DNA from: Eledone cirrhosa
Lineage: Eukaryota
Direction of reading: 5' to 3'
DNA length: 64,000 nt
NCBI GenBank assembly: GCA_964016885.1
Contig: OZ024744.1
Location: forward strand, 131,626,001 to 131,690,000
Each line of letters opens with the position of its first letter. Positions within the stretch are counted from its first letter, which is position 1. Positions 1,468 through 62,162 of this stretch are shown here, one piece after another. The translations under genes were made by a program, and so were the position numbers. The notes under the pieces are model-generated. The model ran no database searches. It had not been told where the DNA came from and saw only the letters and a program-made list of their open reading frames with translations.

Positions 1468-1893
1468 AACCCCAACTTCACTCAACCCCACCTTAACTCA
1501 ACCCCAACTTAACTTAACCCCAACTTCACTGAACCCCAACTTAACTTAACCCCAACTTCACTCAACCCCAACTTAACTCAACCCCAACTTAACTTAACCC
1601 CAACTTAACTTAACCCAAACTTAACTTAACCCCGACTTAACTTAACTTCGACTTAACTTAATCCCAACTTAACTTAACCCAAACTTAACTTAACCCCAAC
1701 TTAACTTAACCACAAATTAACTTAACCCCAACTTAAATTAACCCCAACTTAAATTAACCCCAACTTAACTTAACCCCAACTTAACTTAACCCCAACTTAA
1801 CTCACACCCAACTTAACTTACCCCCAACTTAACTTAACCCCAACTTAGACTTAACCCAAACTTTACTTAACCCCAACTTAACTTAACCCCAAA
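1468..1893 (-). repeat. Inverted satellite island 1 (426 bp, left-domain type)
   Basis: Strand switch at ggggtt|aacccc (1467/1468) to (CCCCAACTTAACTTAA)n, back at ccccaaa|ttcgggg (1893/1894). Carries cttcgac, ccacaaatt, ctcacaccc, ttagactt, aaactttac. Confidence 0.97.
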
Positions 1894-4800
1894 TTCGGGG
1901 TTAAGTTAAGTTGGGGTTAAGTTAAGTTAGGCTTAACTTAAGTTGGGGTTAAGTTAAGTTGGGGGTAAGTTAAGTTCTGGGTAAGTTAAGTTGGGGTTAA
2001 GTTAAGTTGGGGTTAAGTTGGGGTTAATTTAAGTTAGGGTTAAGTTAAGTTGGGGTTGAGTTAAGTTGGGGTTAAGTTAAGTTGGGGTTAAGTTAAGTTG
2101 GGGTCAAGTTAAGTTGGGGTTAAAATTAAGTTGGGGTTAAGTCAAGTTGGGGTTAAGTTAAGTTGGGGTTAATTTAGTTGGGGTTAAGTTAAGTTGGGGC
2201 TAAGTTAAGTTGGGGCTAAGTTAAGTTGGGGCTAAGTTAAGTTGGGGTTAAGTTAAGTTGGGGTTAAGTTAAGTTGGGGTTAATTTAAATTGGGGTTAAG
2301 TTAACTTTGTGGTTAAGTTAAGTTGGGGTTAAGTTAAGTTGGGGCTAAGTTAAGTTGGGGTTAAGTTAAGTTGGGGTTAAGTTAAGTTGGGGTTGAGTTA
2401 AGTTGGGGTTGAGTGAAGTTGGGGTTAATTTAAGTTGGGGTTAAATTAAGTTGGCGTTAAGTTAAGTTGGGGTTGAGTTAAGTTGGGGTTGAGTTAATTT
2501 AGGGTTAAGTTAAGTTGGGGTTAAGTTAAGTTGGGTTTAAGTTAAGTTGGGGTTAAATTAAGTTGGGGTTAAATTAAGTTGGGGTTAAGTTAAGTTGGGG
2601 TTTAGTTAAGTTGGAGTTAAGTTAAGTTGGGGTTAATTTAAGTTGGGGTTAAGTTAAGTTGGTGTTAAGTTAAGTGGTGGTTATGTTAAGTTGGGGTTAA
2701 GTTAAGTTGGGGTTAATTTAAATTGGGGTTAAGTTAACTTTGTGGTTAAGTTAAGTTGGGGTTAAGTTAAGTTGGGGTTAAGTTAAGTTGGGGTTGAGTT
2801 AAGTTGGGGTTGAGTTAATTTAGGGTTAAGTTAAGTTGGGCTTAAGTTAAGTTGGGTTTAAGTTAAGTTGGGGTTAAATTAAGTTGGGGTTAAGTTAAGT
2901 TGGGGGTAAGTTAAGTTGGGGGTAAGTTAAGTTGGGGTTAAGTTAAGTTGGGGTTAAATTAAGTTGGGGTTAAGTTTAGTTGGTGTTAAGTTAAGTTGGG
3001 GTTTATTTAAGTTGGGGTTAATTAAGTTGGGGTTAAGTTAAGTTGGGGTTAAGTTAAGTTGGGGTTAATTTAAGTTGGGGTTGAGTTAAGTTGGGGTTAA
3101 GTTAAGTTGGGTTTATATTAAGTTGGGGTTAAGTTAAGTTGGGGTTAAGTTAAGTTGGGGTTCAGTTAAGTTGCGGTTAAGTTAAGTTGGGGTTAAGTTA
3201 AGTTGGGGTTAAGTTAAGTTGGGGTTAAGTTAAGTTGGGGTTAATTTAAGTTGGTGTTAAGTTAAGTTGGGGCTGAGTTAAGTTGGGGCTGAGTTAAGTT
3301 GGGGTTAAGTTAAGTTGGGGTTGAGTTAAGTTGGGGTTAAGTTAAGTTGGGGTTAAGTTAAGTTGGGGTTAAGTTAAGTTGGGTTTAAGTTAAATTGGGG
3401 TTTAGTTAAGTTGGGGTTCAGTTAAGTTGGGGTTAAGTTAAGTTTGGGTTAAGTTGGGGTTAAATTAATTTGGGGTTAAGTTAAGTTGGGGTTTAGTTTA
3501 GTTGGGGTTAAGTTAAGTTGGGGTTAATTTAAGTTGGGGTTAAGTTAAGTTGCGGGTAATTTAAGTTGGGATTAAGTTAAGTTGGGGTTAAGTTAAGATG
3601 GGGTTAAGTTAAGTTGGGGTTAAGTTAAGTTGGGGTTAAGTTAAATTGGGGGTAAGTTAAGTTGGGGGTAAGTTAAGTTGGGGGCAAGTTAAGTTGGGGT
3701 TCAGTTAAGTTGGGGTTAAATTAAGTTGGGGTTAAGTTTAGTTGGTGTTAAGTTAAGTTGGGGTTTATTTAAGTTGGGGTTAATTAAGTTGGGGTTAAGT
3801 TAAGTTGGGGTTAAGTTAAGTTGGGGTTTAGTTAAGTTGGGGTTCAGTTAAGTTGGGGTTAAGTTAAGTTTGGGTTAAGTTGGGGTTAAATTAATTTGGG
3901 GTTAAGTTAAGTTGGGGTTTAGTTTAGTTGGGGTTAATATAAGTTGCGGGTAATTTAAGTTGGGGTTAAGTTAAGTTGGGGTTAAGTTAGTTGGGGTTAA
4001 GTTAAGTTGGGGTTAAGTTAAGTTGGGGTTAAGTTATGTTGGGGGTAAGTTAAGTTGGGGGTAAGTTAAGTTGGGGTTAAGTTAAGTTGGGGTTAAGTTA
4101 AGTTAGGGTTAAGTTAAATTGGGGTTAAGTTAAGTTGGGGTTAAGTTAAATTGGGGTTAAGTTAAGTTGGGGTTGAGTTAAGTTGGGGTTAAGTTAAGTT
4201 GGGGTTATGTTAAGTTGGGGTTAAGTTAAGTTGCGGTTAAGTTAAGTTGGGGTTAAGTTGGGGTTAAGTTAAGTGGTGGTTATGTTAAGTTGGGGTTAAG
4301 TTAAGTTGGGGTTAATTTAAATTGGGGTTAAGTTAACTTTGTGGTTAAGTTAAGTTGGGGCTAAATTATGTTGGGGCCAAGTTAAGTTGGGGCTAAGTTA
4401 AGTTGGGGTTCAGTTAAGTTGGGGTTAAGTTAAGTTTGGGTTAAGTTGGGGTTAAATTAAGTTGGGGTTAAATTAAGTTGGGGTTAAGTTTAGTTGGTGT
4501 TAAGTTAAGTTGGGGTTTATTTAAGTTGGGGTTAATTAAGTTGGGGTTAAGTTAAGTTGGGGTTAAGTTAAGTTGGGGTTAATTTAAGTTGGGGTTGAGT
4601 TAAGTTGGGGTTAAGTTAAGTTGGGTTTATATTAAGTTGGGGTTAAGTTAAGTTGGGGTTAAGTTAAGTTGGGGTTCAGTTAAGTTGCGGTTAAGTTAAG
4701 TTGGGGTTAAGTTAAGTTGGGGTTAAGTTAAGTTGGGGTTAAGTTAAGTTGGTGTTAAGTTAAGTTGGGGCTGAGTTAAGTTGGGGCTGAGTTAAGTTGG

Positions 4801-6583
4801 GGTTAAGTTAAGTTGGGGTTGAGTTAAGTTGGGGTTAAGTTAAGTTGGGGTTAAGTTAAGTTGGGGTTAAGTTAAGTTGGGTTTAAGTTAAGTTGGGGTT
4901 TAGTTAAGTTGGGGTTCAGTTAAGTTGGGGTTAAGTTAAGTTTGGGTTAAGTTGGGGTTAAATTAATTTGGGGTTAAGTTAAGTTGGGGTTTAGTTTAGT
5001 TGGGGTTAAGTTAAGTTGGGGTTAATTTAAGTTGGGGTTAAGTTAAGTTGCGGGTAATTTAAGTTGGGATTAAGTTAAGTTGGGGTTAAGTTAAGATGGG
5101 GTTAAGTTAAGTTGGGGTTAAGTTAAGTTGGGGTTAAGTTAAATTGGGGGTAAGTTAAGTTGGGGGTAAGTTAAGTTGGGGGCAAGTTAAGTTGGGGTTC
5201 AGTTAAGTTGGGGTTAAATTAAGTTGGGGTTAAGTTTAGTTGGTGTTAAGTTAAGTTGGGGTTTATTTAAGTTGGGGTTAATTAAGTTGGGGTTAAGTTA
5301 AGTTGGGTTAAGTTAAGTTGGGGTTTAGTTAAGTTGGGGTTCAGTTAAGTTGGGGTTAAGTTAAGTTTGGGTTAAGTTGGGGTTAAATTAATTTGGGGTT
5401 AAGTTAAGTTGGGGTTTAGTTTAGTTGGGGTTAAGTTAAGTTGGGGTTAATTTAAGTTGGGGTTAATTTAAGTTGCGGGTAATTTAAGTTGGGGTTAAGT
5501 TAAGTTGGGGTTAAGTTAGTTGGGGTTAAGTTAAGTTGGGGTTAAGTTAAGTTGGGGTTAAGTTATGTTGGGGGTAAGTTAAGTTGGGGGTAAGTTAAGT
5601 TGGGGTTAAGTTAAGTTGGGGTTAAGTTAAGTTAGGGTTAAGTTAAGTTGGGGTTAAGTTAAGTTGGGGTTAAGTTAAATTGGGGTTAAGTTAAGTTGGG
5701 GTTGAGTTAAGTTGGGGTTAAGTTAAGTTGGGGTTATGTTAAGTTGGGGTTAAGTTAAGTTGCGGTTAAGTTAAGTTGGGGTTAAGTTGGGGTTAAGTTA
5801 AGTGGTGGTTATGTTAAGTTGGGGTTAAGTTAAGTTGGGGTTAATTTAAATTGGGGTTAAGTTAACTTTGTGGTTAAGTTAAGTTGGGGCTAAATTAAGT
5901 TGGGGCCAAGTTAAGTTGGGGCTAAGTTAAGTTGGGGTTCAGTTAAGTTGGGGTTAAGTTAAGTTTGGGTTAAGTTGGGGTTAAATTAAGTTGGGGTTAA
6001 GTTAAGTTGGGGTTTAGTTAAGTTGGGGTTAAGTTAAGTTGGGGTTAATTTAAGTTGGGGTTAAGTTAAGTGGTGGTTATGTTAAGTTGGGGTTAAGTTA
6101 AGTTGGGGTTAATTTACATTGGGGTTAAGTTAACTTTGTGGTTAAGTTAAGTTGGGGTTAAGTTAAGTTGGGGTTAAGTTAAGTTGGGGTTCAGTTAAGT
6201 TGCGGTTAAGTTAAGTTGCGGTTAAGTTAAGTTGGGGTTAAGTTAAGTTGGGGTTAAGTTAAGTTGGGGTCAAGTTAAGCTGGGGTTAAGTTAAGTTGGG
6301 GTTAAGTTAAGTTGGTTAGTTAAGTTGAGTTTAAGTTAAGCTGGGGTTAATTTAAGTTGGGTTTAAGTTAAGTTGGGGTTAAGTTAAGTTGGGGTTAAGT
6401 TAAGTTGGGGTTAAGTTAATTTGGGGTTCAGTTAAGTTGGGGTTAAGTCAAGTTGGGGTTAAGTTGGGGTTAAATTAATTTGGGGTTAAGTTAAGTTGGG
6501 GTTAAGTTAAGTTGGGGTTAAGTTAAGTTGGGGTTAAGTTAAGTTGGGGTTAAGTTAATTTGTGGTTAAGTTAAGTTGGGGTT

Positions 6584-7009
6584 AACCCCAACTTCACTCA
6601 ACCCCACCTTAACTCAACCCCAACTTAACTTAACCCCAACTTCACTCAACCCCAACTTAACTTAACCCCAACTTCACTCAACCCCAACTTAACTCAACCC
6701 CAACTTAACTTAACCCCAACTTAACTTAACCCTAACTTAACTTAACCCCGACTTAATTTAACTTCGACTTAACTTAATCCCAACTTAACTTAACCCCAAC
6801 TTAACTTAACCCCAACTTAACTTAACCACAAATTAACTTAACCCCAACTTAAATTAACCCCAACTTAAATTAACCCCAACTTAACTTAACCCCAACTTAA
6901 CTTAACCCCAACTTAACTCACACCCAACTTAACTTACCCCCAACTTAACTTAACCCCAACTTAGACTTAACCCAAACTTTACTTAACCCCAACTTAACTT
7001 AACCCCAAA
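6584..7009 (-). repeat. Inverted island 2 (426 bp)
   Basis: Same entry and exit junctions and internal variant order as island 1. Confidence 0.97.
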
Positions 7010-10000
7010 TTCGGGGTTAAGTTAAGTTGGGGTTAAGTTAAGTTAGGCTTAACTTAAGTTGGGGTTAAGTTAAGTTGGGGGTAAGTTAAGTTCTGGGTAA
7101 GTTAAGTTGGGGTTAAGTTAAGTTGGGGTTAAGTTGGGGTTAATTTAAGTTAGGGTTAAGTTAAGTTGGGGTTGAGTTAAGTTGGGGTTAAGTTAAGTTG
7201 GGGTTAAGTTAAGTTGGGGTCAAGTTAAGTTGGGGTTAAAATTAAGTTGGGGTTAAGTCAAGTTGGGGTTAAGTTAAGTTGGGGTTAATTTAGTTGGGGT
7301 TAAGTTAAGTTGGGGCTAAGTTAAGTTGGGGCTAAGTTAAGTTGGGGCTAAGTTAAGTTGGGGTTAAGTTAAGTTGGGGTTAAGTTAAGTTGGGGTTAAT
7401 TTAAATTGGGGTTAAGTTAACTTTGTGGTTAAGTTAAGTTGGGGTTAAGTTAAGTTGGGGCTAAGTTAAGTTGGGGTTAAGTTAAGTTGGGGTTAAGTTA
7501 AGTTGGGGTTGAGTTAAGTTGGGGTTGAGTGAAGTTGGGGTTAATTTAAGTTGGGGTTAAATTAAGTTGGCGTTAAGTTAAGTTGGGGTTGAGTTAAGTT
7601 GGGGTTGAGTTAATTTAGGGTTAAGTTAAGTTGGGGTTAAGTTAAGTTGGGTTTAAGTTAAGTTGGGGTTAAATTAAGTTGGGGTTAAATTAAGTTGGGG
7701 TTAAGTTAAGTTGGGGTTTAGTTAAGTTGGAGTTAAGTTAAGTTGGGGTTAATTTAAGTTGGGGTTAAGTTAAGTTGGTGTTAAGTTAAGTGGTGGTTAT
7801 GTTAAGTTGGGGTTAAGTTAAGTTGGGGTTAATTTAAATTGGGGCTAAGTTAACTTTGTGGTTAAGTTAAGTTGGGGTTAAGTTAAGTTGGGGTTAAGTT
7901 AAGTTGGGGTTGAGTTAAGTTGGGGTTGAGTTAATTTAGGGTTAAGTTAAGTTGGGCTTAAGTTAAGTTGGGTTTAAGTTAAGTTGGGGTTAAATTAAGT
8001 TGGGGTTAAGTTAAGTTGGGGGTAAGTTAAGTTGGGGGCAAGTTAAGTTGGGGTTAAGTTAAGTTGGGGTTAAATTAAGTTGGGGTTAAGTTTAGTTGGT
8101 GTTAAGTTAAGTTGGGGTTTATTTAAGTTGGGGTTAATTAAGTTGGGGTTAAGTTAAGTTGGGGTTAAGTTAAGTTGGGGTTAATTTAAGTTGGGGTTGA
8201 GTTAAGTTGGGGTTAAGTTAAGTTGGGTTTATATTAAGTTGGGGTTAAGTTAAGTTGGGGTTAAGTTAAGTTGGGGTTCAGTTAAGTTGCGGTTAAGTTA
8301 AGTTGGGGTTAAGTTAAGTTGGGGTTAAGTTAAGTTGGGGTTAAGTTAAGTTGGGGTTAATTTAAGTTGGTGTTAAGTTAAGTTGGGGCTGAGTTAAGTT
8401 GGGGCTGAGTTAAGTTGGGGTTAAGTTAAGTTGGGGTTGAGTTAAGTTGGGGTTAAGTTAAGTTGGGGTTAAGTTAAGTTGGGGTTAAGTTAAGTTGGGT
8501 TTAAGTTAAGTTGGGGTTTAGTTAAGTTGGGGTTCAGTTAAGTTGGGGTTAAGTTAAGTTTGGGTTAAGTTGGGGTTAAATTAATTTGGGGTTAAGTTAA
8601 GTTGGGGTTTAGTTTAGTTGGGGTTAAGTTAAGTTGGGGTTAATTTAAGTTGGGGTTAAGTTAAGTTGCGGGTAATTTAAGTTGGGATTAAGTTAAGTTG
8701 GGGTTAAGTTAAGATGGGGTTAAGTTAAGTTGGGGTTAAGTTAAGTTGGGGTTAAGTTAAATTGGGGGTAAGTTAAGTTGGGGGTAAGTTAAGTTGGGGG
8801 CAAGTTAAGTTGGGGTTCAGTTAAGTTGGGGTTAAATTAAGTTGGGGTTAAGTTTAGTTGGTGTTAAGTTAAGTTGGGGTTTATTTAAGTTGGGGTTAAT
8901 TAAGTTGGGGTTAAGTTAAGTTGGGGTTAAGTTAAGTTGGGGTTTAGTTAAGTTGGGGTTCAGTTAAGTTGGGGTTAAGTTAAGTTTGGGTTAAGTTGGG
9001 GTTAAATTAATTTGGGGTTAAGTTAAGTTGGGGTTTAGTTTAGTTGGGGTTAATATAAGTTGCGGGTAATTTAAGTTGGGGTTAAGTTAAGTTGGGGTTA
9101 AGTTAGTTGGGGTTAAGTTAAGTTGGGGTTAAGTTAAGTTGGGGTTAAGTTATGTTGGGGGTAAGTTAAGTTGGGGGTAAGTTAAGTTGGGGTTAAGTTA
9201 AGTTGGGGTTAAGTTAAGTTAGGGTTAAGTTAAGTTGGGGTTAAGTTAAGTTGGGGTTAAGTTAAATTGGGGTTAAGTTAAGTTGGGGTTGAGTTAAGTT
9301 GGGGTTAAGTTAAGTTGGGGTTATGTTAAGTTGGGGTTAAGTTAAGTTGCGGTTAAGTTAAGTTGGGGTTAAGTTGGGGTTAAGTTAAGTGGTGGTTATG
9401 TTAAGTTGGGGTTAAGTTAAGTTGGGGTTAATTTAAATTGGGGTTAAGTTAACTTTGTGGTTAAGTTAAGTTGGGGCTAAATTATGTTGGGGCCAAGTTA
9501 AGTTGGGGCTAAGTTAAGTTGGGGTTCAGTTAAGTTGGGGTTAAGTTAAGTTTGGGTTAAGTTGGGGTTAAATTAAGTTGGGGTTAAGTTAAGTTGGGGT
9601 TTAGTTAAGTTGGGGTTAAGTTAAGTTGGGGTTAATTTAAGTTGGGGTTAAGTTAAGTCGTGGTTATGTTAAGTTGGGGTTAAGTTAAGTTGGGGTTAAT
9701 TTAAATTGGGGTTAAGTTAACTTTGTGGTTAAGTTAAGTTGGGGTTAAGTTAAGTTGGGGTTAAGTTAAGTTGGGGTTCAGTTAAGTTGCGGTTAAGTTA
9801 AGTTGCGGTTAAGTTAAGTTGGGGTTAAGTTAAGTTGGGGTTAAGTTAAGTTGGGGTCAAGTTAAGCTGGGGTTAAGTTAAGTTGGGGTTAAGTTAAGTT
9901 GGTTAGTTAAGTTGAGTTTAAGTTAAGCTGGGGTTAATTTAAGTTGGGTTTAAGTTAAGTTGGGGTTAAGTTAAGTTGGGGTTAAGTTAAGTTGGGGTTA

Positions 10001-10154
10001 AGTTAATTTGGGGTTCAGTTAAGTTGGGGTTAAGTCAAGTTGGGGTTAAGTTGGGGTTAAATTAATTTGGGGTTAAGTTAAGTTGGGGTTAAGTTAAGTT
10101 GGGGTTAAGTTAAGTTGGGGTTAAGTTAATTTGTGGTTAAGTTAAGTTGGGGTT

Positions 10155-10580
10155 AACCCCAACTTCACTCAACCCCACCTTAACTCAACCCCAACTTAAC
10201 TTAACCCCAACTTCACTCAACCCCAACTTAACTTAACCCCAACTTCACTCAACCCCAACTTAACTCAACCCCAACTTAACTTAACCCCAACTTAACTTAA
10301 CCCTAACTTAACTTAACCCCGACTTAACTTAACTTCGACTTAACTTAATCCCAACTTAACTTAACCCCAACTTAACTTAACCCCAACTTAACTTAACCAC
10401 AAATTAACTTAACCCCAACTTAAATTAACCCCAACTTAAATTAACCCCAACTTAACTTAACCCCAACTTAACTTAACCCCAACTTAACTCACACCCAACT
10501 TAACTTACCCCCAACTTAACTTAACCCCAACTTAGACTTAACCCAAACTTTACTTAACCCCAACTTAACTTAACCCCAAA
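10155..10580 (-). repeat. Inverted island 3 (426 bp)
   Basis: Same junctions and markers as island 1. Confidence 0.97.
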
Positions 10581-13500: not shown

Positions 13501-14438
13501 AGTTGGGGTTAAGTTAAGTTGGGGTTAAGTTAAATTGGGGTTAAGTTAAGTTGGGGTTGAGTTAAGTTGGGGTTAAGTTAAGTTGGGGTTATGTTAAGTT
13601 GGGGTTAAGTTAAGTTGCGGTTAAGTTAAGTTGGGGTTAAGTTGGGGTTAAGTTAAGTGGTGGTTATGTTAAGTTGGGGTTAAGTTAAGTTGGGGTTAAT
13701 TTAAATTGGGGTTAAGTTAACTTTGTGGTTAAGTTAAGTTGGGGCTAAATTAAGTTGGGGCCAAGTTAAGTTGGGGCTAAGTTAAGTTGGGGTTCAGTTA
13801 AGTTGGGGTTAAGTTAAGTTTGGGTTAAGTTGGGGTTAAATTAAGTTGGGGTTAAGTTAAGTTGGGGTTTAGTTAAGTTGGGGTTAAGTTAAGTTGGGGT
13901 TAATTTAAGTTGGGGTTAAGTTAAGTGGTGGTTATGTTAAGTTGGGGTTAAGTTAAGTTGGGGTTAATTTACATTGGGGTTAAGTTAACTTTGTGGTTAA
14001 GTTAAGTTGGGGTTAAGTTAAGTTGGGGTTAAGTTAAGTTGGGGTTCAGTTAAGTTGCGGTTAAGTTAAGTTGCGGTTAAGTTAAGTTGGGGTTAAGTTA
14101 AGTTGGGGTTAAGTTAAGTTGGGGTCAAGTTAAGCTGGGGTTAAGTTAAGTTGGGGTTAAGTTAAGTTGGTTAGTTAAGTTGAGTTTAAGTTAAGCTGGG
14201 GTTAATTTAAGTTGGGTTTAAGTTAAGTTGGGGTTAAGTTAAGTTGGGGTTAAGTTAAGTTGGGGTTAAGTTAATTTGGGGTTCAGTTAAGTTGGGGTTA
14301 AGTCAAGTTGGGGTTAAGTTGGGGTTAAATTAATTTGGGGTTAAGTTAAGTTGGGGTTAAGTTAAGTTGGGGTTAAGTTAAGTTGGGGTTAAGTTAAGTT
14401 GGGGTTAAGTTAATTTGTGGTTAAGTTAAGTTGGGGTT

Positions 14439-49725: not shown

Positions 49726-50118
49726 AACCCCAACTTCACTCAACCCCACCTTAACTCAACCCCAACTTAACTTAACCCCAACTTCACTCAACCCCAACTT
49801 AACTCAACCCCAACTGAACTTAACCCCAACTTAACTTAACCCTAACTTAACTTAACCCCGACTTAACTTAACTTCGACTTAACTTAACCCCAACTTAACT
49901 TAACCCCAACTTAACTTAACCCCAACTTAACTTAACCACAAATTAAGTTAACCCCAACTTAAATTAACCCCAACTTAAATTAACCCCAACTTAACTTAAC
50001 CCCAACTTAACTTAACCCCAACTTAACTCACACCCAACTTAACTTACCCCCAACTTAACTTAACCCCAACTTGACTTAACCCAAACTTAACTTAACCCCA
50101 ACTTAACTTAACCCCAAA
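49726..50118 (-). repeat. Inverted island 14 (393 bp, short type)
   Basis: As island 12. Confidence 0.96.
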
Positions 50119-53100
50119 TTCGGGGTTAAGTTAAGTTGGGGTTAAGTTAAGTTAGGCTTAACTTAAGTTGGGGTTAAGTTAAGTTGGGGGTAAGTTAAGT
50201 TCTGGGTAAGTTAAGTTGGGGTTAAGTTGGGGTTAATTTAAGTTAGGGTTAAGTTAAGTTGGGGTTGAGTTAAGTTGGGGTTAAGTTAAGTTGGGGTTAA
50301 GTTAAGTTGGGGTCAAGTTAAGTTGGGGTTAAAATTAAGTTGGGGTTAAGTCAAGTTGGGGTTAAGTTAAGTTGGGGTTAATTTAGTTGGGGTTAAGTTA
50401 AGTTGGGGCTAAGTTAATTTGGGGCTAAGTTAAGTTGGGGCTAAGTTAAGTTGGGGTTAAGTTAAGTTGGGGTTAAGTTAAGTTGGGGTTAATTTAAATT
50501 GGGGTTAAGTTAACTTTGTGGTTAAGTTAAGTTGGGGTTAAGTTAAGTTGGGGCTAAGTTAAGTTGGGGTTAAGTTAAGTTGGGGTTAAGTTAAGTTGGG
50601 GTTGAGTTAAGTTGGGGTAGAGTGAAGTTGGGGTTAAGTTAAGTTGGGGTTAAGTTAAGTTGGCGTTAAGTTAAGTTGGGGTTGAGTTAAGTTGGGGTTG
50701 AGTTAATTTAGGGTTAAGTTAAGTTGGGGTTAAGTTAAGTTGGGTTTAAGTTAAGTTGGGGTTAAATTAAGTTGGGGTTAAATTAAGTTGGGGTTAAGTT
50801 AAGTTGGGGGTAAGTTAAGTTGGGGTTAAGTTAAGTTGGGGTTCAGTTAAGTTAGGGTTAAGTTAAGTTTGGGTTAAGTTGGGGTTAAATTAAGTTGGGG
50901 TTAAGTTAAGTTGGGGTTTAGTTAAGTTGGAGTTAAGTTAAGTTGGGGTTAATTTAAGTTGGTGTTAAGTTAAGTGGTGGTTATGTTAAGTTGGGGTTAA
51001 GTTAAGTTGGGGTTAATTTAAATTGGGGTTAAGTTAACTTTGTGGTTAAGTTAAGTTGGGGTTAAGTTAAGTTGGGGTTAAGTTAAGTTGGGGTTAAGTT
51101 AAGTCGAAGTTAAGTTAAGTCGGGGTTAAGTTAAGTTGGGGTTGAGTGAAGTTGGGGTTAAGTTAAGTTGGGGTTAATTTAAGTTGGGGTTAAGTTAAGT
51201 CGGGGTTAAGTTAAGTTGGGGTTGAGTTAAGTTGGGGTTAATTTAAGTTGGGGCTAAGTTAATTTGGGTTTAAGTTAAGTTGGGGTTAAATTAAGTTGGG
51301 GTTAAGTTAAGTTGGGGGTAAGTTAAGTTGGGGGCAAGTTAAGTTGGGGTTCAGTTAAGTTGGGGTTAAATTAAGTTGGGGTTAAGTTTAGTTGGTGTTA
51401 AGTTAAGTTGGGGTTTATTTAAGTTGGGGTTAATTAAGTTGGGGTTAAGTTAAGTTGGGGTTAAGTTAAGTTGGGGTTAATTTAAGTTGGGGTTGAGTTA
51501 AGTTGGGGTTAAGTTAAGTTGGGTTTATATTAAGTTGGGGTTAAGTTAAGTTGGGGTTAAGTTAAGTTGGGGTTCAGTTAAGTTGCGGTTAAGTTAAGTT
51601 GGGGTTAAGTTAAGTTGGGGTTAAGTTAAGTTGGGGTTAAGTTAAGTTGGGGTTAAGTTAAGTTGGTGTTAAGTTAAGTTGGGGCTGAGTTAAGTTGGGG
51701 CTGAGTTAAGTTGGGGTTAAGTTAAGTTGGGGTTGAGTTAAGTTGGGGTTAAGTTAAGTTGGGGTTAAGTTAAGTTGGGGTTCAGTTAAGTTGGGGTTAA
51801 GTTAAGTTTGGGTTAAGTTGGGGTTAAATTAATTTGGGGTTAAGTTAAGTTGGGGTTTAGTTTAGTTGGGGTTAATTTAAGTTGGGGTTAAGTTAAGTTG
51901 CGGGTAATTTAAGTTGGGGTTAAGTTAAGTTGGAGTTAAGTTAAGTTGGGGTTAAGTTAAGTTGGGGTTAAGCTAAGTTGGGGGTAAGTTAAGTTGGGGG
52001 TAAGTTAAGTTGGGGTTAAGTTAAGTTGGGGTTAAGTTAAGTTAGGGTTAAGTTAAGTTGGGGTTGAGTTAAGTTGAGGTTAAGTTAAGTTGGGGTTATG
52101 TTAAGTTGGGGTTAAGTTAAGTTGCGGTTAAGTTAAGTTGGGGTTAAGTTAAGTTGGGGTTAAGTTAAATTGGGGTTAAGTTAAGTTGGGGTTGAGTTAA
52201 GTTGGGGTTAAGTTAAGTTGGGGTTATGTTAAGTTGGGGTTAATTTAAGTTGCGGTTAAGTTAAGTTGGGGTTAAGTTGGGGTTAAGTTAAGTGGTGGTT
52301 ATGTTAAGTTGGGGTTAAGTTAAGTTGGGTTTAATTTAAATTGGGGTTAAGTTAACTTTGTGGTTAAGTTAAGTTGGGGCTAAATTAAGTTGGGGCTAAG
52401 TTAAGTTGGGGCTAAGTTAAGTTGGGGTTCAGTTAAGTTGGGGTTAAGTTAAGTTTGGGTTAAGTTGGGGTTAAATTAAGTTGGGGTTAAGTTAAGTTGG
52501 GGTTTAGTTAAGTTGGGGTTAAGTTAAGTTGGGGTTAATTTAAGTTGGGGTTAAGTTAAGTGGTGGTTATGTTAAGTTGGGGTTAAGTTAAGTTGGGGTT
52601 AATTTAAATTGGGGTTAAGTTAACTTTGTGGTTAAGTTAAGCTGGGGTTAAGTTAAGTTGGGGTTAAGTTAAGTTGGTTAGTTAAGTTGAGTTTAAGTTA
52701 AGTTGGGGTTAATTTAAGTTGGGTTTAAGTTAAGTTGGGGTTAAGTTAAGTTGGGGTTAAGTTAAGTTGGGGTTCAGTTAAGTTGGGGTTAAGTTAAGTT
52801 GGGGTTAAGATGGGGTTAAATTAAGTTGGGGTTAAGTTAAGTTGGGGTTAAGTTAAGTTGGGGTTAAGTTAAGTCGGGGTTAAGTTAAGTCGGGGTTATG
52901 TTAAGTTAGGGTTAAGTTAAGTTTGAGTTAAGTTAAGTTGGGGTGAGTTAAGTTGGGGTTGAGTTAAATTGGGGTGGAGTTAAGTTGGGGTTGAGTTAAG
53001 TTGGTGTTGAGTTAAGTTGGGGTTAAGTTAAGTTGCAGTTAAGTTAAGTTGAGGTTAAGTTAAGTAGGGGTTAAGTTAAGTTGGGGTTAAGTTAAGTTGG

Positions 53101-55812
53101 GGCTAAGTTAATTTGGGGCTAAGTTAAGTTGGGGCTAAGTTAAGTTGGGGTTCAGTTAAGTTGGGGTTAAGTTAAGTTTGGGTTAAGTTGGGGTTAAATT
53201 AAGTTGGGGTTAAGTTAAGTTGGGGTTTAGTTAAGTTGGGGTTAAGTTAAGTTGGGGTTAATTTAAGTTGGGGTTAAGTTAAGTTGGTGTTAAGTTAAGT
53301 GGTGGTTATGTTAAGTTGGGGTTAAGTTAAGTTGGGGTTAATTTAAATTGGGGTTAAGTTAACTTTGTGGTTAAGTTAAGTTGGGGTTAAGTTAAGTTGG
53401 GGTTAAGTTAAGTTGGGGTTGAGTTAAGTTGGGGTTGAGTGAAGTTGGGGTTAAGTTAAGTTGGGGTTAATTTATGTTGGGGTTAAGTTAAGTCGGGGTT
53501 AAGTTAAGTTGGGGTTGAGGTAAGTTGGGGTTAATTTAAGTTGGGGCTAAGTTAATTTGTGGTTAAGTTAAGTTGGGGTTAAGTTAAGTTGGGGTTAAGT
53601 TAAGTTGGGGTTGAGTTAAGTTGGGGTTGAGTTAATTTAGGGTTAAGTTAAGTTGGGGTTAAGTTAAGTTGGGTTTAAGTTAAGTTGGGGTTAAATTAAG
53701 TTGGGGTTAAGTTAAGTTGGGGGTAAGTTAAGTTGGGGGCAAGTTAAGTTGGGGTTAAGTTAAGTTGGGGTTAAATTAAGTTGGGGTTAAGTTTACTTGG
53801 TGTTAAGTTAAGTTGGGGTTTATTTAAGTTGGGGTCAACTTAAGTTGGGGTTAAGTTAAGTTGGGGTTAAGTTAAGTTGGTGTTAAGTTAAGTTGGGGCT
53901 AAGTTAAGTTGGGGCTGAGTTAAGTTGGGGCTGAGTTAAGTTGGGGTTAAGTTAAGTTGGGGTTAATTTAAGTTGGGGTTAATTTAAGTTGGGGTTGAGT
54001 TAAGTTGGGGTTAAGTTAAGTTGGGTTTATATTAAGTTGGGGTTAAGTTAAGTTGGGGTTAAGTTAAGTTGGGGTTCAGGTAAGTTGCGGTTAAGTTAAG
54101 TTGGGGTTAAGTTAAGTTGGGATTAAGTTAAGTTGGGGTTAAGTTAAGTTGGGGTTAAGTTAAGTTGGGGTTAAGTTAAGTTGGTGTTAAGTTAAGTTGG
54201 GGCTGAGTTAAGTTGGGGCTGAGTTAAGTTGGGGTTAAGTTAAGTTGGGGTTGAGTTAAGTTGGGGTTCAGTTAAGTTGGGGTTAAGTTAAGTTGGGGTT
54301 AAGTTAAGTTGGGGTTAAGTTAAGTTGGGGTTTAATTAAGTTGGGGTTAAGTAAAGTTTGGGTTAAGTTGGGGTTAAATTAATTTGGGGTTAAGTTAAGT
54401 TGGGGTTTAGTTTAGTTGGGGTTAAGTTAAGTTGGGGTTAATTTAAGTTGGGCTTAAGTTAAGTTGCGGGTAATTTAAGTTGGGGTTAAGTTAAGTTGGG
54501 GTTAAGTTAAGTTGGGGTTAAGTTAAGTTGGGGTTAAGTTAAGTTGGGGTTAAGTTAAGTTGGGTTAAGTTAAGTTGGGGGTAAGTTAAGTTGGGGGTAA
54601 GTTAAGTTGGGGTTAAGTTAAGTTAGGGTTAAGTTAAGTTGGAGTTGAGTTAAGTTGGGGTTAAGTTAAGTTGGAGTTATGTTAAGTTGGGGTTAAGTTA
54701 AGTTGCGGTTAAGTTAAGTTGTGGTTAAGTTAAGTTGGGGTTAAGTTATATTGGGGTTAAGTTAAGTTGGGGTTGATTTAAGTTGGGGTTAAGTTAAGTT
54801 GGGGTTATGTTAAGTTGGGGTTAAGTTAAGTTGCGGTTAAGTTAAGTTGGGGTTAAGTTGGCGTTAAGTTAAGTGGTGGTTATGTTAAGTTGGGGTTAAG
54901 TTAAGTTGGGGGTAAGTTAAGTTGGGGGTAAGTTAAGTTGGGGTTAAGTTAAGTTAGGGTTAAGTTAAGTTGGGGTTGAGTTAAGTTGGGGTTAAGTTAA
55001 GTTGGGGTTATGTTAAGTTGGGGTTAAGTTAAGTTGCGGTTAAGTTAAGTTGGGGTTAAGTTAAGTTGGGGTTAAGTTAAATTGGGGTTAAGTTAAGTTG
55101 GGGTTGAGTTAAGTTGGGGTTAAGTTAAGTTGGGGTTATGTTAAGTTGGGGTTAAGTTGGCGTTAAGTTAAGTGGTGGTTATGTTAAGTTGGGGTTAAGT
55201 TAAGTTGGGGTTAATTTAAATTGGGGTTAAGTTAACTTTGTGGTTAAGTTAAGTTGGGGCTAAATTAAGTTGGGGCTAAGTTAAGTTGGGGCTAAGTTAA
55301 GTTGGGGTTCAGTTAAGTTGGGGTTAAGTTAAGTTTGGGTTAAGTTGGGGTTAAATTAAGTTGGGGTTAAGTTAAGTTGGGGTTTAGTTAAGTTGGGGTT
55401 AAGTTAAGTTGGGGTTAATTTAAGTTGGGGTTAAGTTAAGTTGGGGTTAAGTTAAGTGGTGGTTATGTTAAGTTGGGGTTAAGTTAAGTTGGGGTTAATT
55501 TAAATTGGGGTTAAGTTAACTTTGTGGTTAAGTTAAGTTGGGGTTTAGTTAAGTTGGGGTTAAGTTAAGTTGGGGTTAAGTTAAGTTGGGGTTCAGTTAA
55601 GTTGCGGTCAAGTTAAGATGGGGTTAAGTTAAGTTGGGGTTAAGTTAAGTTGGGGTTAAGTTAATTTGGGGTTCAGTTAAGTTGGGGTTAAGTCAAGTTG
55701 GGGTTAAGTTGGGGTTAAATTAATTTAGGGTTAAGTTAAGTTGGGGTTAAGTTAAGTTGGGGTTAAGTTAAGTTGGGGTTAAGTTAATTTGTGGTTAAGT
55801 TAAGTTGGGGTT

Positions 55813-56237
55813 AACCCCAACTTCACTCAACCCCACCTTAACTCAACCCCAACTGAACTTAACCCCAACTTCACTCAACCCCAACTTAACTTAACCCCAA
55901 CTTCACTCAACCCCAACTTAACTCAACCCCAACTTAACTTAACCCCAACTTAACTTAACCCTAACTTAACTTAACCCCGACTTAACTTAACTTCGACTTA
56001 ACTTAACCCCAACTTAACTTAACCCCAACTTAACTTAACCCCAACTTAACTTAACCACAAATTAACTTAACCCAAACTTAAATTAACCCCAACTTAAATT
56101 AACCCCAACTTAACTTAACCCCAACTTAACTTAACCCCAACTTAACTCACACCCAACTTAACTTACCCCCAACTTAACTTAACCCCAACTTGACTTAACC
56201 CCAACTTAACTTAACCCCAACTTAACTTAAACCCAAA
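55813..56237 (-). repeat. Inverted island 15 (425 bp, long type)
   Basis: As island 7; exit reads acccaaattcgggg (one substitution). Confidence 0.96.
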
Positions 56238-57546
56238 TTCGGGGTTAAGTTAAGTTGGGGTTAAGTTAAGTTAGGCTTAACTTAAGTTGGGGTTAAATTA
56301 AGTTAGGGTTAAGTTAAGTTGGGTTTAAGTTAAGTTGGGGTTAAATTAAGTTGGGGTTAAGTTAAGTTGGGGGTAAATTAAGTTGGGGGCAAGTTAAGTT
56401 GGGGTTCAGTTAAGTTGGGGTTAAATTAAGTTGGGGTTAAGTTTAGTTGGTGTTAAGTTAAGTTGGGGTTAATTTAAGTTGGGGTTGAGTTAAGTTGGGG
56501 TTAAGTTAAGTTGGGTTTATATTAAGTTGGGGTTAAGTTAAGTTGGGGTTCAGTTAAGTTGCGGTTAAGTTAAGTTGGGGTTAAGTTAAGTTGGGGTTAA
56601 GTTAAGTTGGGGTTAAGTTAAGTTGGTGTTAAGTTAAGTTGGGGCTGAGTTAAGTTGGCGCTGAGTTAAGTTGGGGTTAAGTTAAGTTGGGGTTGAGTTA
56701 AGTTGGGGTTAAGTTAAGTTGGGTTTAAGTTAAGTTGGGGTTAAGTTAAGTTGGGGTTAAGTTAAGTTGGGGTTTAGTTAAGTTGGGGTTCAGTTAAGTT
56801 GGGGTTAAGTTAAGTTGGGGTTAAGTTAAGTTGGGGTTAAGTTAAGTTGGGGTTAAGTTAAGGTAGGGTTAAGTTAAGTTGGGGTTGAGTTAAGTTGGGG
56901 TTAAGTTAAGTTGGGGTTATGTTAAGTTGGGGTTAAGTTAAGTTGCGGTTAAGTTAAGTTGGGGTTAAGTTAAGTTGGGGTTAAGTTAAATTGGGGTTGA
57001 GTTAAATTGGGGTTAAGTTAAGTTGGGGTTAAGTTGGGGTTAAGTTAAGTGGTGGTTATGTTAAGTTGGGGTTAAGTTAAGTTGGGGTTAATTTAAATTG
57101 GGGTTAAGTTAACTTTGTGGTTAAGTTAAGTTGGGGTTAAGTTAAGTTGGGGTTGAGTTAAGTTGGGGTTCAGTTAAGTTGCGGTTAAGTTAAGTTGCGG
57201 TTAAGTTAAGTTGGGGTTAAGTTAAGTTGGGGTTAAGTTAAGTTGGGGTCAAGTTAAGCTGGGGTTAAGTTAAGTTGGGGTTAAGTTAAGTTGGTTAGTT
57301 AAGTTGAGTTTAAGTTAAGTTGGGGTTAATTTAAGTTGGGTTTAAGTTAAGTTGGGGTTAAGTTAAGTTGGGGTTAAGCTAAGTTGGGGTTAAGTTAATT
57401 TGGGGTTCAGTTAAGTTGGGGTTAAGTCAAGTTGGGGTTAAGTTGTGGTTAAATTAATTTGGGGTTAAGTTAAGTTGGGGTTAAGTTAAGTTGGGGTTAA
57501 GTTAAGTTGGGGTTAAGTTAATTTGTGGTTAAGTTAAGTTGGGGTT

Positions 57547-57875
57547 AACCCCAACTTCACTCAACCCCACCTTAACTCAACCCCAACTTAACTTAACCCC
57601 AACTTCACTCAACCCCAACTTAACTCAACCCCAACTGAACTTAACCCCAACTTAACTTAACCCTAACTTAACTTAACCCCGACTTAACTTAACCACAAAT
57701 TAAGTTAACCCCAACTTAAATTAACCCCAACTTAAATTAACCCCAACTTAACTTAACCCCAACTTAACTTAACCCCAACTTAACTCACACCCAACTTAAC
57801 TTACCCCCAACTTAACTTAACCCCAACTTGACTTAACCCAAACTTAACTTAACCCCAACTTAACTTAACCCCAAA
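57547..57875 (-). repeat. Inverted island 16 (329 bp, shortest type)
   Basis: 393-bp type minus 64 bp including the cttcgac unit (reads ccccgacttaacttaaccacaaat). Confidence 0.96.
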
Positions 57876-60099
57876 TTCGGGGTTAAGTTAAGTTGGGGTT
57901 AAGTTAAGTTAGGCTTAACTTAAGTTGGGGTTAAGTTAAGTTGGGGGTAAGTTAAGTTCTGGGTAAGTTAAGTTGGGGTTAAGTTGGGGTTAATTTAAGT
58001 TAGGGTTAAGTTAAGTTGGGGTTGAGTTAAGTTGGGGTTAAGTTAAGTTGGGGTTAAGTTAAGTTGGGGTCAAGTTAAGTTGGGGTTAAAATTAAGTTGG
58101 GGTTAAGTCAAGTTGGGGTTAAGTTAAGTTGGGGTTAATTTAGTTGGGGTTAAGTTAAGTTGGGGCTAAGTTAATTTGGGGCTAAGTTAAGTTGGGGCTA
58201 AGTTAAGTTGGGGTTAAGTTAAGTTGGGGTTAAGTTAAGTTGGGGTTAATTTAAATTGGGGTTAAGTTAAGTTGGGGTTAAGTTAAGTTGGGGCTAAGTT
58301 AAGTTGGGGTTAAGTTAAGTTGGGGTTAAGTTAAGTTGGGGTTGAGTTAAGTTGGGGTTGAGTGAAGTTGGGGTTAAGTTAAGTTGGCGTTAAGTTAAGT
58401 TGGGGTTGAGTTAAGTTGGGGTTGAGTTAATTTAGGGTTAAGTTAAGTTGGGGTTAAGTTAAGTTGGGTTTAAGTTAAGTTGGGGTTAAATTAAGTTGGG
58501 GTTAAATTAAGTTGGGGTTAAGTTAAGTTGGGGGTAAGTTAAGTTGGGGTTAAGTTAAGTTGGGGTTCAGTTAAGTTAGGGTTAAGTTAAGTTTGGGTTA
58601 AGTTGGGGTTAAATTAAGTTGGGGTTAAGTTAAGTTGGGGTTTAGTTAAGTTGGAGTTAAGTTAAGTTGGGGTTAATTTAAGTTGGGGTTAAGTTAAGTT
58701 GGTGTTAAGTTAAGTGGTGGTTATGTTAAGTTGGGGTTAAGTTAAGTTGGGGTTAATTTAAATTGGGGTTAAGTTAACTTTGTGGTTAAGTTAAGTTGGG
58801 GTTAAGTTAAGTTGGGGTTAAGTTAAGTTGGGGTTGAGTTAAGTTGGGGTTGAGTGAAGTTGGGGTTAAGTTAAGTTGGGGTTAATTTAAGTTGGGGTTA
58901 AGTTAAGTCGGGGTTAAGTTAAGTTGGGGTTGAGTTAAGTTGGTGTTAATTTAAGTTGGGGCTAAGTTAATTTGTGGTTAAGTTAAGTTGGGGTTAAGTT
59001 AAGTTGGGGTTAAGTTAAGTTGGGGTTGAGTTAAGTTGGGGTTAAGTTAAGTTGGGGTTATGTTAAGTTGGGGTTAAGTTAAGTTGCGGTTAAGTTAAGT
59101 TGGGGTTAAGTTGGCGTTAAGTTAAGTGGTGGTTATGTTAAGTTGGGGTTAAGTTAAGTTGGGGGTAAGTTAAGTTGGGGGTAAGTTAAGTTGGGGTTAA
59201 GTTAAGTTAGGGTTAAGTTAAGTTGGGGTTGAGTTAAGTTGGGGTTAAGTTAAGTTGGGGTTATGTTAAGTTGGGGTTAAGTTAAGTTGCGGTTAAGTTA
59301 AGCTGGGGTTAAGTTAAGTTGGGGTTAAGTTAAATTGGGGTTAAGTTAAGTTGGGGTTGAGTTAAGTTGGGGTTAAGTTAAGTTGGGGTTATGTTAAGTT
59401 GGGGTTAAGTTAAGTTGGGGTTAATTTAAATTGGGGTTAAGTTAACTTTGTGGTTAAGTTAAGTTGGGGCTAAATTAAGTTGGGGCTAAGTTAAGTTGGG
59501 GCTAAGTTAAGTTGGGGTTCAGTTAAGTTGGGGTTAAGTTAAGTTTGGGTTAAGTTGGGGTTAAATTAAGTTGGGGTTAAGTTAAGTTGGGGTTTAGTTA
59601 AGTTGGGGTTAAGTTAAGTTGGGGTTAATTTAAGTTGGGGTTAAGTTAAGTTGGGGTTAAGTTAAGTGGTGGTTATGTTAAGTTGGGGTTAAGTTAAGTT
59701 GGGGTTAATTTAAATTGGGGTTAAGTTAACTTTGTGGTTAAGTTAAGTTGGGGTTCAGTTAAGTTGGGGTTAAGTTAAGTTGGGGTTCAGTTAAGTTGCG
59801 GTCAAGTTAAGCTGGGGTTAAGTTAAGTTGGGGTTAAGTTAAGTTGGTTAGTTAAGTTGCGTTTAAGTTAAGTTGGGGTTAATTTAAGTTGGGTTTAAGT
59901 TAAGTTGGCGTTAAGTTAAGTTGGGGTTAAGTTAAGTTGGGGTTAAGTTAATTTGGGGTTCAGTTAAGTTGGGGTTAAGTCAAGTTGGGGTTAAGTTGGG
60001 GTTAAATTAATTTAGGGTTAAGTTAAGTTGGGGTTAAGTTAAGTTGGGGTTAAGTTAAGTTGGGGTTAAGTTAATTTGTGGTTAAGTTAAGTTGGGGTT

Positions 60100-60524
60100 A
60101 ACCCCAACTTCACTCAACCCCACCTTAACTCAACCCCAACTGAACTTAACCCCAACTTCACTCAACCCCAACTTAACTTAACCCCAACTTCACTCAACCC
60201 CAACTTAACTCAACCCCAACTTAACTTAACCCCAACTTAACTTAACCCTAACTTAACTTAACCCCGACTTAACTTAACTTCGACTTAACTTAACCCCAAC
60301 TTAACTTAACCCCAACTTAACTTAACCCCAACTTAACTTAACCACAAATTAACTTAACCCAAACTTAAATTAACCCCAACTTAAATTAACCCCAACTTAA
60401 CTTAACCCCAACTTAACTTAACCCCAACTTAACTCACACCCAACTTAACTTACCCCCAACTTAACTTAACCCCAACTTGACTTAACCCCAACTTAACTTA
60501 ACCCCAACTTAACTTAACCCCAAA
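60100..60524 (-). repeat. Inverted island 17 (425 bp, long type)
   Basis: As island 7. Confidence 0.96.
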
Positions 60525-61833
60525 TTCGGGGTTAAGTTAAGTTGGGGTTAAGTTAAGTTAGGCTTAACTTAAGTTGGGGTTAAGTTAAGTTAGGGTTAAG
60601 TTAAGTTGGGTTTAAGTTAAGTTGGGGTTAAATTAAGTTGGGGTTAAGTTAAGTTGGGGGTAAATTAAGTTGGGGGCAAGTTAAGTTGGGGTTCAGTTAA
60701 GTTGGGGTTAAATTAAGTTGGGGTTAAGTTTAGTTGGTGTTAAGTTAAGTTGGGGTTAATTTAAGTTGGGGTTGAGTTAAGTTGGGGTTAAGTTAAGTTG
60801 GGTTTATATTAAGTTGGGGTTAAGTTAAGTTGAGGTTCAGTTAAGTTGCGGTTAAGTTAAGTTGGGGTTAAGTTAAGTTGGGGTTAAGTTAAGTTGGGGT
60901 TAAGTTAAGTTGGTGTTAAGTTAAGTTGGGGCTGAGTTAAGTTGGGGCTGAGTTAAGTTGGGGTTAAGTTAAGTTGGGGTTGAGTTAAGTTGGGGTTAAG
61001 TTAAGTTGGGTTTAAGTTAAGTTGGGGTTAAGTTAAGTTGGGGTTAAGTTAAGTTGGGGTTTAGTTAAGTTGGGGTTCAGTTAAGTTGGGGTTAAGTTAA
61101 GTTGGGGTTAAGTTAAGTTGGGGTTAAGTTAAGTTGGGGTTAAGTTAAGGTAGGGTTAAGTTAAGTTGGGGTTGAGTTAAGTTGGGGTTAAGTTAAGTTG
61201 GGGTTATGTTAAGTTGGGGTTAAGTTAAGTTGCGGTTAAGTTAAGTTGGGGTTAAGTTAAGTTGGGGTTAAGTTAAATTGGGGTTGAGTTAAATTGGGGT
61301 TAAGTTAAGTTGGGGTTAAGTTGGGGTTAAGTTAAGTGGTGGTTATGTTAAGTTGGGGTTAAGTTAAGTTGGGGTTAATTTAAATTGGGGTTAAGTTAAC
61401 TTTGTGGTTAAGTTAAGTTGGGGTTAAGTTAAGTTGGGGTTGAGTTAAGTTGGGGTTCAGTTAAGTTGCGGTTAAGTTAAGTTGCGGTTAAGTTAAGTTG
61501 GGGTTAAGTTAAGTTGGGGTTAAGTTAAGTTGGGGTCAAGTTAAGCTGGGGTTAAGTTAAGTTGGGGTTAAGTTAAGTTGGTTAGTTAAGTTGAGTTTAA
61601 GTTAAGTTGGGGTTAATTTAAGTTGGGTTTAAGTTAAGTTGGGGTTAAGTTAAGTTGGGGTTAAGCTAAGTTGGGGTTAAGTTAATTTGGGGTTCAGTTA
61701 AGTTGGGGTTAAGTCAAGTTGGGGTTAAGTTGTGGTTAAATTAATTTGGGGTTAAGTTAAGTTGGGGTTAAGTTAAGTTGGGGTTAAGTTAAGTTGGGGT
61801 TAAGTTAATTTGTGGTTAAGTTAAGTTGGGGTT

Positions 61834-62162
61834 AACCCCAACTTCACTCAACCCCACCTTAACTCAACCCCAACTTAACTTAACCCCAACTTCACTCAAC
61901 CCCAACTTAACTCAACCCCAACTGAACTTAACCCCAACTTAACTTAACCCTAACTTAACTTAACCCCGACTTAACTTAACCACAAATTAAGTTAACCCCA
62001 ACTTAAATTAACCCCAACTTAAATTAACCCCAACTTAACTTAACCCCAACTTAACTTAACCCCAACTTAACTCACACCCAACTTAACTTACCCCCAACTT
62101 AACTTAACCCCAACTTGACTTAACCCAAACTTAACTTAACCCCAACTTAACTTAACCCCAAA
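61834..62162 (-). repeat. Inverted island 18 (329 bp, shortest type)
   Basis: Same 64-bp deletion as island 16. Confidence 0.96.

What the first reader, a model, noticed from the sequence alone, without database searches (positions are those of the whole stretch)
1468..62162. Eighteen inverted islands with identical breakpoints: one inversion amplified as part of the higher-order repeat
Seen: 18 strand switches with the same entry and exit junctions and the same internal variant order, starts spaced 1.6-7.7 kb apart, sizes 426 (x6), 425 (x6), 393 (x2), 361 (x2), 329 (x2). Apart from one 1-bp indel, size differences are multiples of 16. Inference: a single origin followed by amplification. Each island is complementary to both flanks, giving near-zero-spacer quasi-palindromes with arms of several hundred bp, which are normally unstable. 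Their retention every few kb suggests they either drive array turnover (fold-back, template switching, breakage) or are functional. This periodic inverted-island organisation is the most distinctive feature of the window.
Basis: partly seen in the sequence, partly recalled or inferred. Interest (0 to 1): 0.85.

Follow-up and report, generated by a model that had tools for sequence, protein, structure and literature searches.

The report
Amplified inversion fossils in satellite DNA
Eighteen short back-to-front stretches in a 16-letter satellite repeat are copies of one old inversion, likely a replication copying error at a self-complementary four-letter word in the repeat unit, which was likely multiplied as a passenger to hundreds of copies and appears now and then to seed larger flips.

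Summary
Observation confirmed: 18 minus-strand islands with the stated starts, sizes and junctions in a pure 16-bp satellite. They belong to one family with at least 850 entry junctions in this genome; 259 lie in 864 gap-free kb around the window. Island sequence tracks flank sequence, and copy number, spacing and flank sharing match ordinary point-variant markers, so they spread like passengers; spacing is not periodic. Two independent, rarer island families (3 and 30 copies) carry a mirror copy of their upstream flank, and 7 of 8 independent in-array junctions sit on the monomer's palindromic TTAA (about 8-11% expected). That points to replication template switching; for the window family the origin is inferred, since no mirror signal remains. 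Arms are only 86-88% identical, like random monomers, and the palindrome tips are not eroded. Islands do bound 5 of 7 in-contig ends of larger inverted segments, so they likely seed inversions occasionally. No evidence of function. Known analogues: Tribolium conserved inversion sites and human HSat3/beta-satellite strand switches.

The parts
1..64000 (+). 16-bp satellite array (G-rich strand on +), an irregular mosaic of nested higher-order blocks; part of an array sampled from about 127.0 to 135.2 Mb of contig C28
1468..1893 (-). island 1 (426 bp)
6584..7009 (-). island 2 (426 bp)
10155..10580 (-). island 3 (426 bp)
14439..14864 (-). island 4 (426 bp)
18010..18435 (-). island 5 (426 bp)
22517..22942 (-). 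island 6 (426 bp)
30228..30652 (-). island 7 (425 bp, type A)
31962..32322 (-). island 8 (361 bp, type B)
36234..36658 (-). island 9 (425 bp, type A)
37824..38184 (-). island 10 (361 bp, type B)
42097..42521 (-). island 11 (425 bp, type A)
43687..44079 (-). island 12 (393 bp, type B)
47992..48416 (-). island 13 (425 bp, type A)
49726..50118 (-). island 14 (393 bp, type B)
55813..56237 (-). island 15 (425 bp, type A, one extra change near the exit)
57547..57875 (-). island 16 (329 bp, type B)
60100..60524 (-). island 17 (425 bp, type A)
61834..62162 (-). island 18 (329 bp, type B)
1457..1478 (.). example entry junction: 22-bp perfect palindrome centred on the monomer's first TTAA (same at every island; 16 bp at island 9)
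1887..1900 (.). example exit junction: imperfect palindrome, not TTAA-centred; holds the window's ApoI site type
1926..1942 (+). example of the diagnostic variant pair 2-3 monomers downstream of every exit, co-amplified with the island
30228..47991 (+). three near-identical 5.9-6.0 kb higher-order units, each with one type A and one type B island (2 mismatches between neighbours)

Best explanation
The 18 islands are copies of one old short inversion in a 16-bp satellite, likely made by a replication template switch at the monomer's self-complementary TTAA and likely multiplied as a passenger when kilobase higher-order blocks were duplicated. Shown: one family, shared junctions, co-inheritance with flanks, marker-like abundance and spacing. 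Inferred step 1 (origin): a nascent strand ending in TTAA re-primed on the opposite parental strand at another TTAA a few monomers ahead, copied backwards 150-230 nt or more, then returned. This is the 3-1-2-4 event of the four-point model; its product (mirror copy plus inverted spacer) is seen directly in the rarer family F3 and, with a less clear spacer, in F2, and is extrapolated to the window family, whose mirror arm has been overwritten. Inferred step 2 (spread): unequal exchange or break-induced duplication of 1-8 kb blocks carried island plus flanks; gains and losses of whole monomers changed island length from about 120 to 520 bp. Inferred step 3 (persistence): about 13% arm divergence keeps duplex cruciforms short, so the islands are tolerated. 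Inferred step 4 (side effect): an island is homologous in inverted orientation to the whole array, so an occasional exchange between an island and array DNA flips kilobase to half-megabase segments and reuses the island junctions as the new boundaries.
For: One family: same entry, related exits (central form 392 exact matches, window form 148+2), same downstream marker and shared private variants at 124.6, 130.2-131.8, 132.0-132.8 and 135.0 Mb of C28. Co-inheritance: Mantel rho 0.48 on 70 of 259 islands, 0 of 999 permutations; rho 0.66 within 100 kb. Passenger behaviour against 26 control markers: 258 copies (controls 120-406), upstream sharing 0.28 (0.34 +/- 0.10), downstream 0.39 (0.33 +/- 0.09), spacing CV 0.67 (0.58-1.14). 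Independent origins: F2 on C18 (3 copies, 148 bp) and F3 on C28 128.56-129.60 Mb (30 of the 34 matches) mirror their upstream flank (F2 3 of 3 copies, 0 of 299 local windows as good; F3 4 of 4 tested, 0 of 406). TTAA overlap at 7 of 8 independent in-array junctions (7 of 9 with an orphan outside arrays) versus 20 of 256 breakpoint pairs (20 of 182 detectable head-to-head); binomial P about 1e-7 to 5e-5. Junction reuse at 131,323,659, 131,326,142, 132,857,192, 133,355,371 and 128,584,731.
Against: The window family shows no mirror signal: 0 of 18 window islands beat the null, and only 1 of 34 length classes in the 864 kb did. Its exit junction is not TTAA-centred (1-nt overlap), so its own origin by template switching is an extrapolation. 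The two block-scale TTAA junctions (131,964,579; 132,859,239) join non-adjacent sequence with no mirror, which fits end joining or long-range switching equally well. The 2.6-kb secondary inversion is not a clean reciprocal exchange. Island spacing CV is at the low end of the controls, and only 3 of 260 spacings are under 900 bp. Entry arms are longer than random pairs (median 11 versus 4), which does not exclude some maintenance. Junctions with mutated flanks escape exact-pattern searches.
Confidence: 0.7

Rival explanations
1. Same history of amplification, but the founding inversions were made by breakage and microhomology-mediated joining (or a TTAA-cutting transposase-like nuclease), not by polymerase template switching.
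For: TTAA is self-complementary, so cut ends rejoin in either orientation; the two block junctions show no mirror copy; the window family's exit has a 1-nt overlap and can be read as a TTAA junction that lost 4 central bases (my reading). That piggyBac elements use TTAA is recalled, not from a call.
Against: In-place flipping makes no duplication, yet F2 and F3 duplicate the adjacent upstream variants in mirror order; the window family's breakpoint phases do not restore an intact array when re-inverted (arithmetic); upstream flanks of subfamilies stay homologous, so there are no new insertion sites.
Confidence: 0.13
2. The islands are selected or self-promoting: fold-back DNA or hairpin RNA at the junctions organises heterochromatin, or breaks there accelerate local amplification.
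For: Single-stranded DNA across a junction folds at -82 to -84 kcal/mol per 200 nt versus about -10 for plain array; the abstract of PMC10164571 reports that in single-stranded DNA only heterology beyond 25% suppresses instability; TT|AA centre kept in 259 of 259 (finder biased to that centre); one family reached 850 or more copies; islands bound larger inversions.
Against: Island-free stretches of the same satellite at 127.0, 128.5, 129.5, 130.0, 131.82-131.96, 133.36-133.8, 134.4 and 135.2 Mb; marker-like abundance and flank sharing; density varies from 48 to 6 per 100 kb; one secondary inversion per 259 islands.
Confidence: 0.13
3. Sequencing fold-back chimeras or misassembly created the islands.
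For: Adjacent 5.9-kb units differ by only 2 mismatches, so the exact copy number may be wrong; several larger polarity changes sit at N gaps; long reads were not examined.
Against: Window islands carry monomer variants absent from the window's + strand (18 vs 0, 16 vs 0, 16 vs 0, 15 vs 1), so they are not fold-backs of local reads; they form diverged subfamilies (mean 4.5%, max 10.3%) tied to their flanks; the 864 kb has no N.
Confidence: 0.03

Closest known systems
Tribolium macro-dyad symmetries with conserved inversion sites (T. madens TmSat1/TmSat2, PMC13081366; T. freemani TfSat01, bioRxiv 10.1101/2024.12.02.626372; passages read)
   Same: Thousands of near-identical inversion junctions of a few types; truncated opposed monomers with no foreign DNA; predicted hairpins; function versus spread left open by the authors.
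   Different: There: multi-kb, roughly symmetric subarrays of 110-700 bp monomers on many chromosomes with two intermingled satellites. Here: 0.1-0.5 kb islands (11% of the window) in a one-directional 16-bp array, both junctions inherited together; young families expose the origin. The passages read propose ectopic recombination, and 'template switch' and 'microhomolog' occur 0 times in PMC13081366.
Strand-switch-rich human arrays: HSat3B5 on chr9 and beta-satellite (bioRxiv 10.1101/2021.07.12.452052; 10.64898/2026.07.22.740206; PMC13684623; passages)
   Same: [quoted passage not shown]
   Different: The passages seen do not trace the switches to one junction family or to a monomer palindrome; scaling with array length across individuals cannot be tested here.
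Short-range template switching, four-point model, event 3-1-2-4 (PMC5453318; passages)
   Same: Inverted repeat plus inverted spacer from one switch-and-return, as in F3 and probably F2.
   Different: Described in unique, masked human and chimp sequence as short mutation clusters; here 150-230 nt events inside a satellite, later amplified.
Cichlid centroids (PMC13652916; passages)
   Same: Satellite blocks in alternating orientation.
   Different: Built round two 15-kb transposon-like elements per centromere; no foreign sequence in the islands here.

Membership tests
Tribolium-type macro-dyad symmetry | Conserved inversion junctions of few types, in many copies | tested here: met
   18 of 18 in window; 850 or more genome-wide
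Tribolium-type macro-dyad symmetry | No extraneous sequence at the junction | tested here: met
   (a few copies at 132.7 Mb have an AT-rich repeat replacing the entry)
Tribolium-type macro-dyad symmetry | Multi-kb subarrays tending to symmetry | tested here: not met
   islands 123-524 bp in a one-directional array; 11.4% of window
Tribolium-type macro-dyad symmetry | Same junction on non-homologous chromosomes | tested here: inconclusive
   listed matches start on C28 with none on lower-numbered contigs; lists are cut at 100
Tribolium-type macro-dyad symmetry | (Peri)centromeric location | not testable with these tools
   array lies in the last 10 Mb of a 136.5-Mb scaffold; no chromatin data
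Strand-switch-rich satellite array (HSat3B5/beta-satellite type) | Hundreds of orientation switches scattered in a simple satellite | tested here: met
   261 minus segments in 864 kb, irregular spacing
Strand-switch-rich satellite array (HSat3B5/beta-satellite type) | Switch number scales with array length across individuals | not testable with these tools
   one assembly only
Four-point template-switch event (3-1-2-4) | Insert is the reverse complement of adjacent sequence (families F2, F3) | tested here: met
   0 of 299 and 0 of 406 local windows match as well
Four-point template-switch event (3-1-2-4) | Insert is the reverse complement of adjacent sequence (window family) | tested here: not met
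   0 of 18 window islands; may be overwritten, so it is not filed as a shown member
Four-point template-switch event (3-1-2-4) | Comparison with the unmutated ancestral allele | not testable with these tools
   no pre-event allele identified
TTAA-specific (piggyBac-like) non-autonomous element (features recalled) | Dispersed insertions with new flanks and TTAA duplication at both ends | tested here: not met
   flanks co-inherited; window family exit lacks TTAA

The most novel reading that the evidence does not exclude
A satellite whose monomer holds a palindromic 4-mer is an inversion generator: template switches at TTAA repeatedly plant short inverted islands, block duplication multiplies them, and amplified islands then act as ready-made recombination handles that set the kilobase to half-megabase polarity map of the array. 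If so, conserved inversion sites in satellites need no function, and their positions are predictable from the monomer sequence.
Probability: 0.4. Interest if true: 0.6.

Novelty: new variant of a known kind. Interest (0 to 1): 0.42.

Why it matters
Conserved inversion sites in satellite arrays have been proposed to be structural or centromeric signals. This array holds the whole series in one genome: young families that still show how the inversion was made, an old family amplified like any neutral marker, and larger flips bounded by island junctions. It gives a neutral null model and a testable prediction (junctions fall on monomer palindromes) for other satellites, and a ready assay, since ApoI cuts only at exits in this window.

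Tried and rejected
Periodicity: raw CV 0.67 was the lowest of 27 markers, but after limiting spacings to 450-15,000 bp it fell inside the control range; rejected. Erosion of the palindrome tip: not seen (arm of 2 bp or less in 9 of 259 versus 36% of random pairs; median 9 over 63 distinct haplotypes). Clean in-place inversion for the window family: breakpoint phases do not fit. Pre-insertion allele: the downstream marker occurs without an island in 8 of 200 cases in the 864 kb, in mixed contexts, so no ancestor could be reconstructed. Transposon-like insertion: rejected, as flanks are co-inherited. Rfam on six neighbouring samples: 0 matches. Sequencing runs for a 131-bp exit stretch: three runs of one sample and one study hold 5-8 of 9 sampled words and may be the assembly's own source, so not counted as support; no RNA holder listed. 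An orphan 50-bp palindrome on C18 outside any array is not TTAA-centred and is counted in the 7-of-9 figure; a 40-bp call on C18 and similar short calls look like point variants and were left out. Earlier findings of the scan: none. Paper supplements were not read; they may hold junction-level detail for HSat3 and Tribolium.
Full report
What the window is. The 64 kb is one 16-bp satellite, at C28:131,626,001-131,690,000 of a 3.0-Gb genome; C28 is 136.5 Mb. Samples show the satellite at 127.0-135.2 Mb but not at 126.85 or 135.4 Mb, with other arrays on C2 and C18. 64,581 exact dimer matches at 5.7 per kb suggest roughly 11 Mb in all (rough). The organism was not identified and the monomer was in no paper searched.

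Observation. All 18 islands, their sizes, junctions and variant order are as reported. The entry is a zero-spacer palindrome on the monomer's first TTAA; the exit is an imperfect palindrome; a variant pair follows 2-3 monomers later. The array is an irregular mosaic of nested blocks; islands 7-12 sit in three 5.9-6.0 kb units that differ by 2 mismatches, and island subtypes go with specific flanks. Perfect arms are 11 bp (entry) and 2 bp (exit); full-arm identity is 0.856 and 0.877 against 0.871 for random array pairs; single strands would fold at -82 to -84 kcal/mol per 200 nt against about -10. G-tracts are 12 nt apart: 471 long-loop quadruplex-like matches on +, none with loops of 7 or less; whether they stall forks is untested.

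One family. The 864 gap-free kb around the window hold 261 minus segments, 259 of them islands under 600 bp. The entry 17-mer has 850 forward and 788 reverse matches. Exit forms differ by single bases from a central form with 392 exact matches; the window's form has 148+2. Copies at 124.6, 130.2-130.9, 132.0-132.8, 132.8-133.35 and 135.0 Mb share entry, exit type, downstream marker and private variants. Islands diverge 4.5% on average, 10.3% at most, and their distances follow flank distances (70 of 259 sampled, rho 0.48, 0 of 999 permutations). Window islands hold variants absent from the window's + strand, which rules out read fold-back.

Passenger or driver. Against 26 point-variant markers in the same 864 kb, islands are ordinary in number, flank sharing and spacing once domain gaps are removed. 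Against my reading: their CV is at the low end, close spacings are rare (3 of 260 under 900 bp, partly because the island itself must be duplicated whole), and entry arms are longer than random pairs. No tip deletions were seen in 259 entries. Long stretches of the same satellite have no islands.

Origin. Gap-tolerant searches for other junction phases found family F2 on C18 (3 copies), family F3 on C28 (30 copies), two block junctions and one orphan. F2 and F3 have TTAA at both ends and repeat the rare variants of their upstream flank in mirror order (0 of 299 and 0 of 406 local windows score as well). F3 adds about four monomers with their own variants between arm and junction, an inverted spacer, matching event 3-1-2-4 of the four-point model (PMC5453318, passages), which I read as an inter-strand switch ahead of the fork. 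Of 8 independent in-array junctions 7 overlap by TTAA; chance is 20 of 256 breakpoint pairs, or 20 of 182 for detectable head-to-head pairs. The exception is the window family's exit. That family has lost any mirror signal (0 of 18), so its origin by the same route is inferred.

Secondary inversions. At 131,323,659-131,326,141 a 2.5-kb segment is flipped with an island junction at each end and a whole island in + orientation inside. Minus blocks end at island exits at 132,857,192 and 133,355,371, the latter closing a block that begins near 132.86 Mb (interior only sampled), and an 820-bp flip at 128,584,731 uses an F3 entry. Two block ends are new TTAA junctions. So 5 of 7 in-contig boundaries seen reuse an island junction; three others lie at N gaps and were left out. 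Only about 1.5 Mb of the satellite was read in full, so this is a sample.

Comparison. Conserved inversion sites in thousands of copies are known in Tribolium (PMC13081366, 10.1101/2024.12.02.626372; passages), and hundreds of strand switches in human HSat3B5 and beta-satellite, read as by-products of expansion (passages). This case fails the multi-kb symmetry feature of macro-dyads and differs in showing origin, amplification and reuse in one array. Searches listed no paper tracing satellite inversion junctions to a monomer palindrome; the library is partial and supplements were not read. PMC10164571 (abstract only) indicates that 13% divergence would not protect single-stranded DNA, consistent with rare island-seeded events.

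Verdict. Real, single-origin and amplified; most likely a neutral fossil of template switching with a modest side effect on array polarity; function unsupported and untested. New variant of a known kind; interest 0.42.

Noticed in passing
L163-L166, L199-L202 (C28:128.56-129.60 Mb): Independent island family F3: 30 copies, 217-233 bp, TTAA at both ends, mirror copy of the upstream flank plus inverted spacer.
   Followed up: yes
L134-L136 (C18:10.129, 10.132, 10.189 Mb): Independent island family F2: 3 copies, 148 bp, perfect palindromes at both ends (20-bp and 10-bp arms), mirror of the upstream flank.
   Followed up: yes
C28:131,384,959; 131,396,907; 131,482,943: Three exits have become perfect palindromes (EcoRI site) by one more substitution; could be quasi-palindrome correction or chance.
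   Followed up: no
L094:1350-5000 and C28:132.0-132.8, 124.63-124.64, 128.56-128.59 Mb: An AT-rich degenerate repeat is interspersed in the satellite and co-amplified with it; at 132.7 Mb it replaces the entry of several islands.
   Followed up: partly
C28:124.60-124.69 Mb (L111-L121): A gap-bounded 95-kb block of the same subfamily as 132.0-132.8 Mb lies in reverse orientation 2 Mb outside the main array; possibly a scaffolding placement error.
   Followed up: partly
L159 (C18:33,633,36x): Isolated 50-bp head-to-head palindrome of the satellite in unique DNA next to a TA-rich microsatellite.
   Followed up: no
L128, L129, L204 (C28:125.2, 126.0, 126.85 Mb): GC-rich, partly tandem sequence beside the array, reminiscent of an rDNA spacer (impression only); no Rfam match in L128 and L129.
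   Followed up: partly
L100, L101, L102, L110, L125, L127, L130: Several unrelated satellites fill the distal 18 Mb and both ends of C28; no telomeric repeat was evident among the commonest words of the end samples.
   Followed up: no
window 1926-1942 and after every exit: The downstream variant pair equals a 6-bp micro-inversion around a TTAA, or two independent point changes; not resolved.
   Followed up: partly
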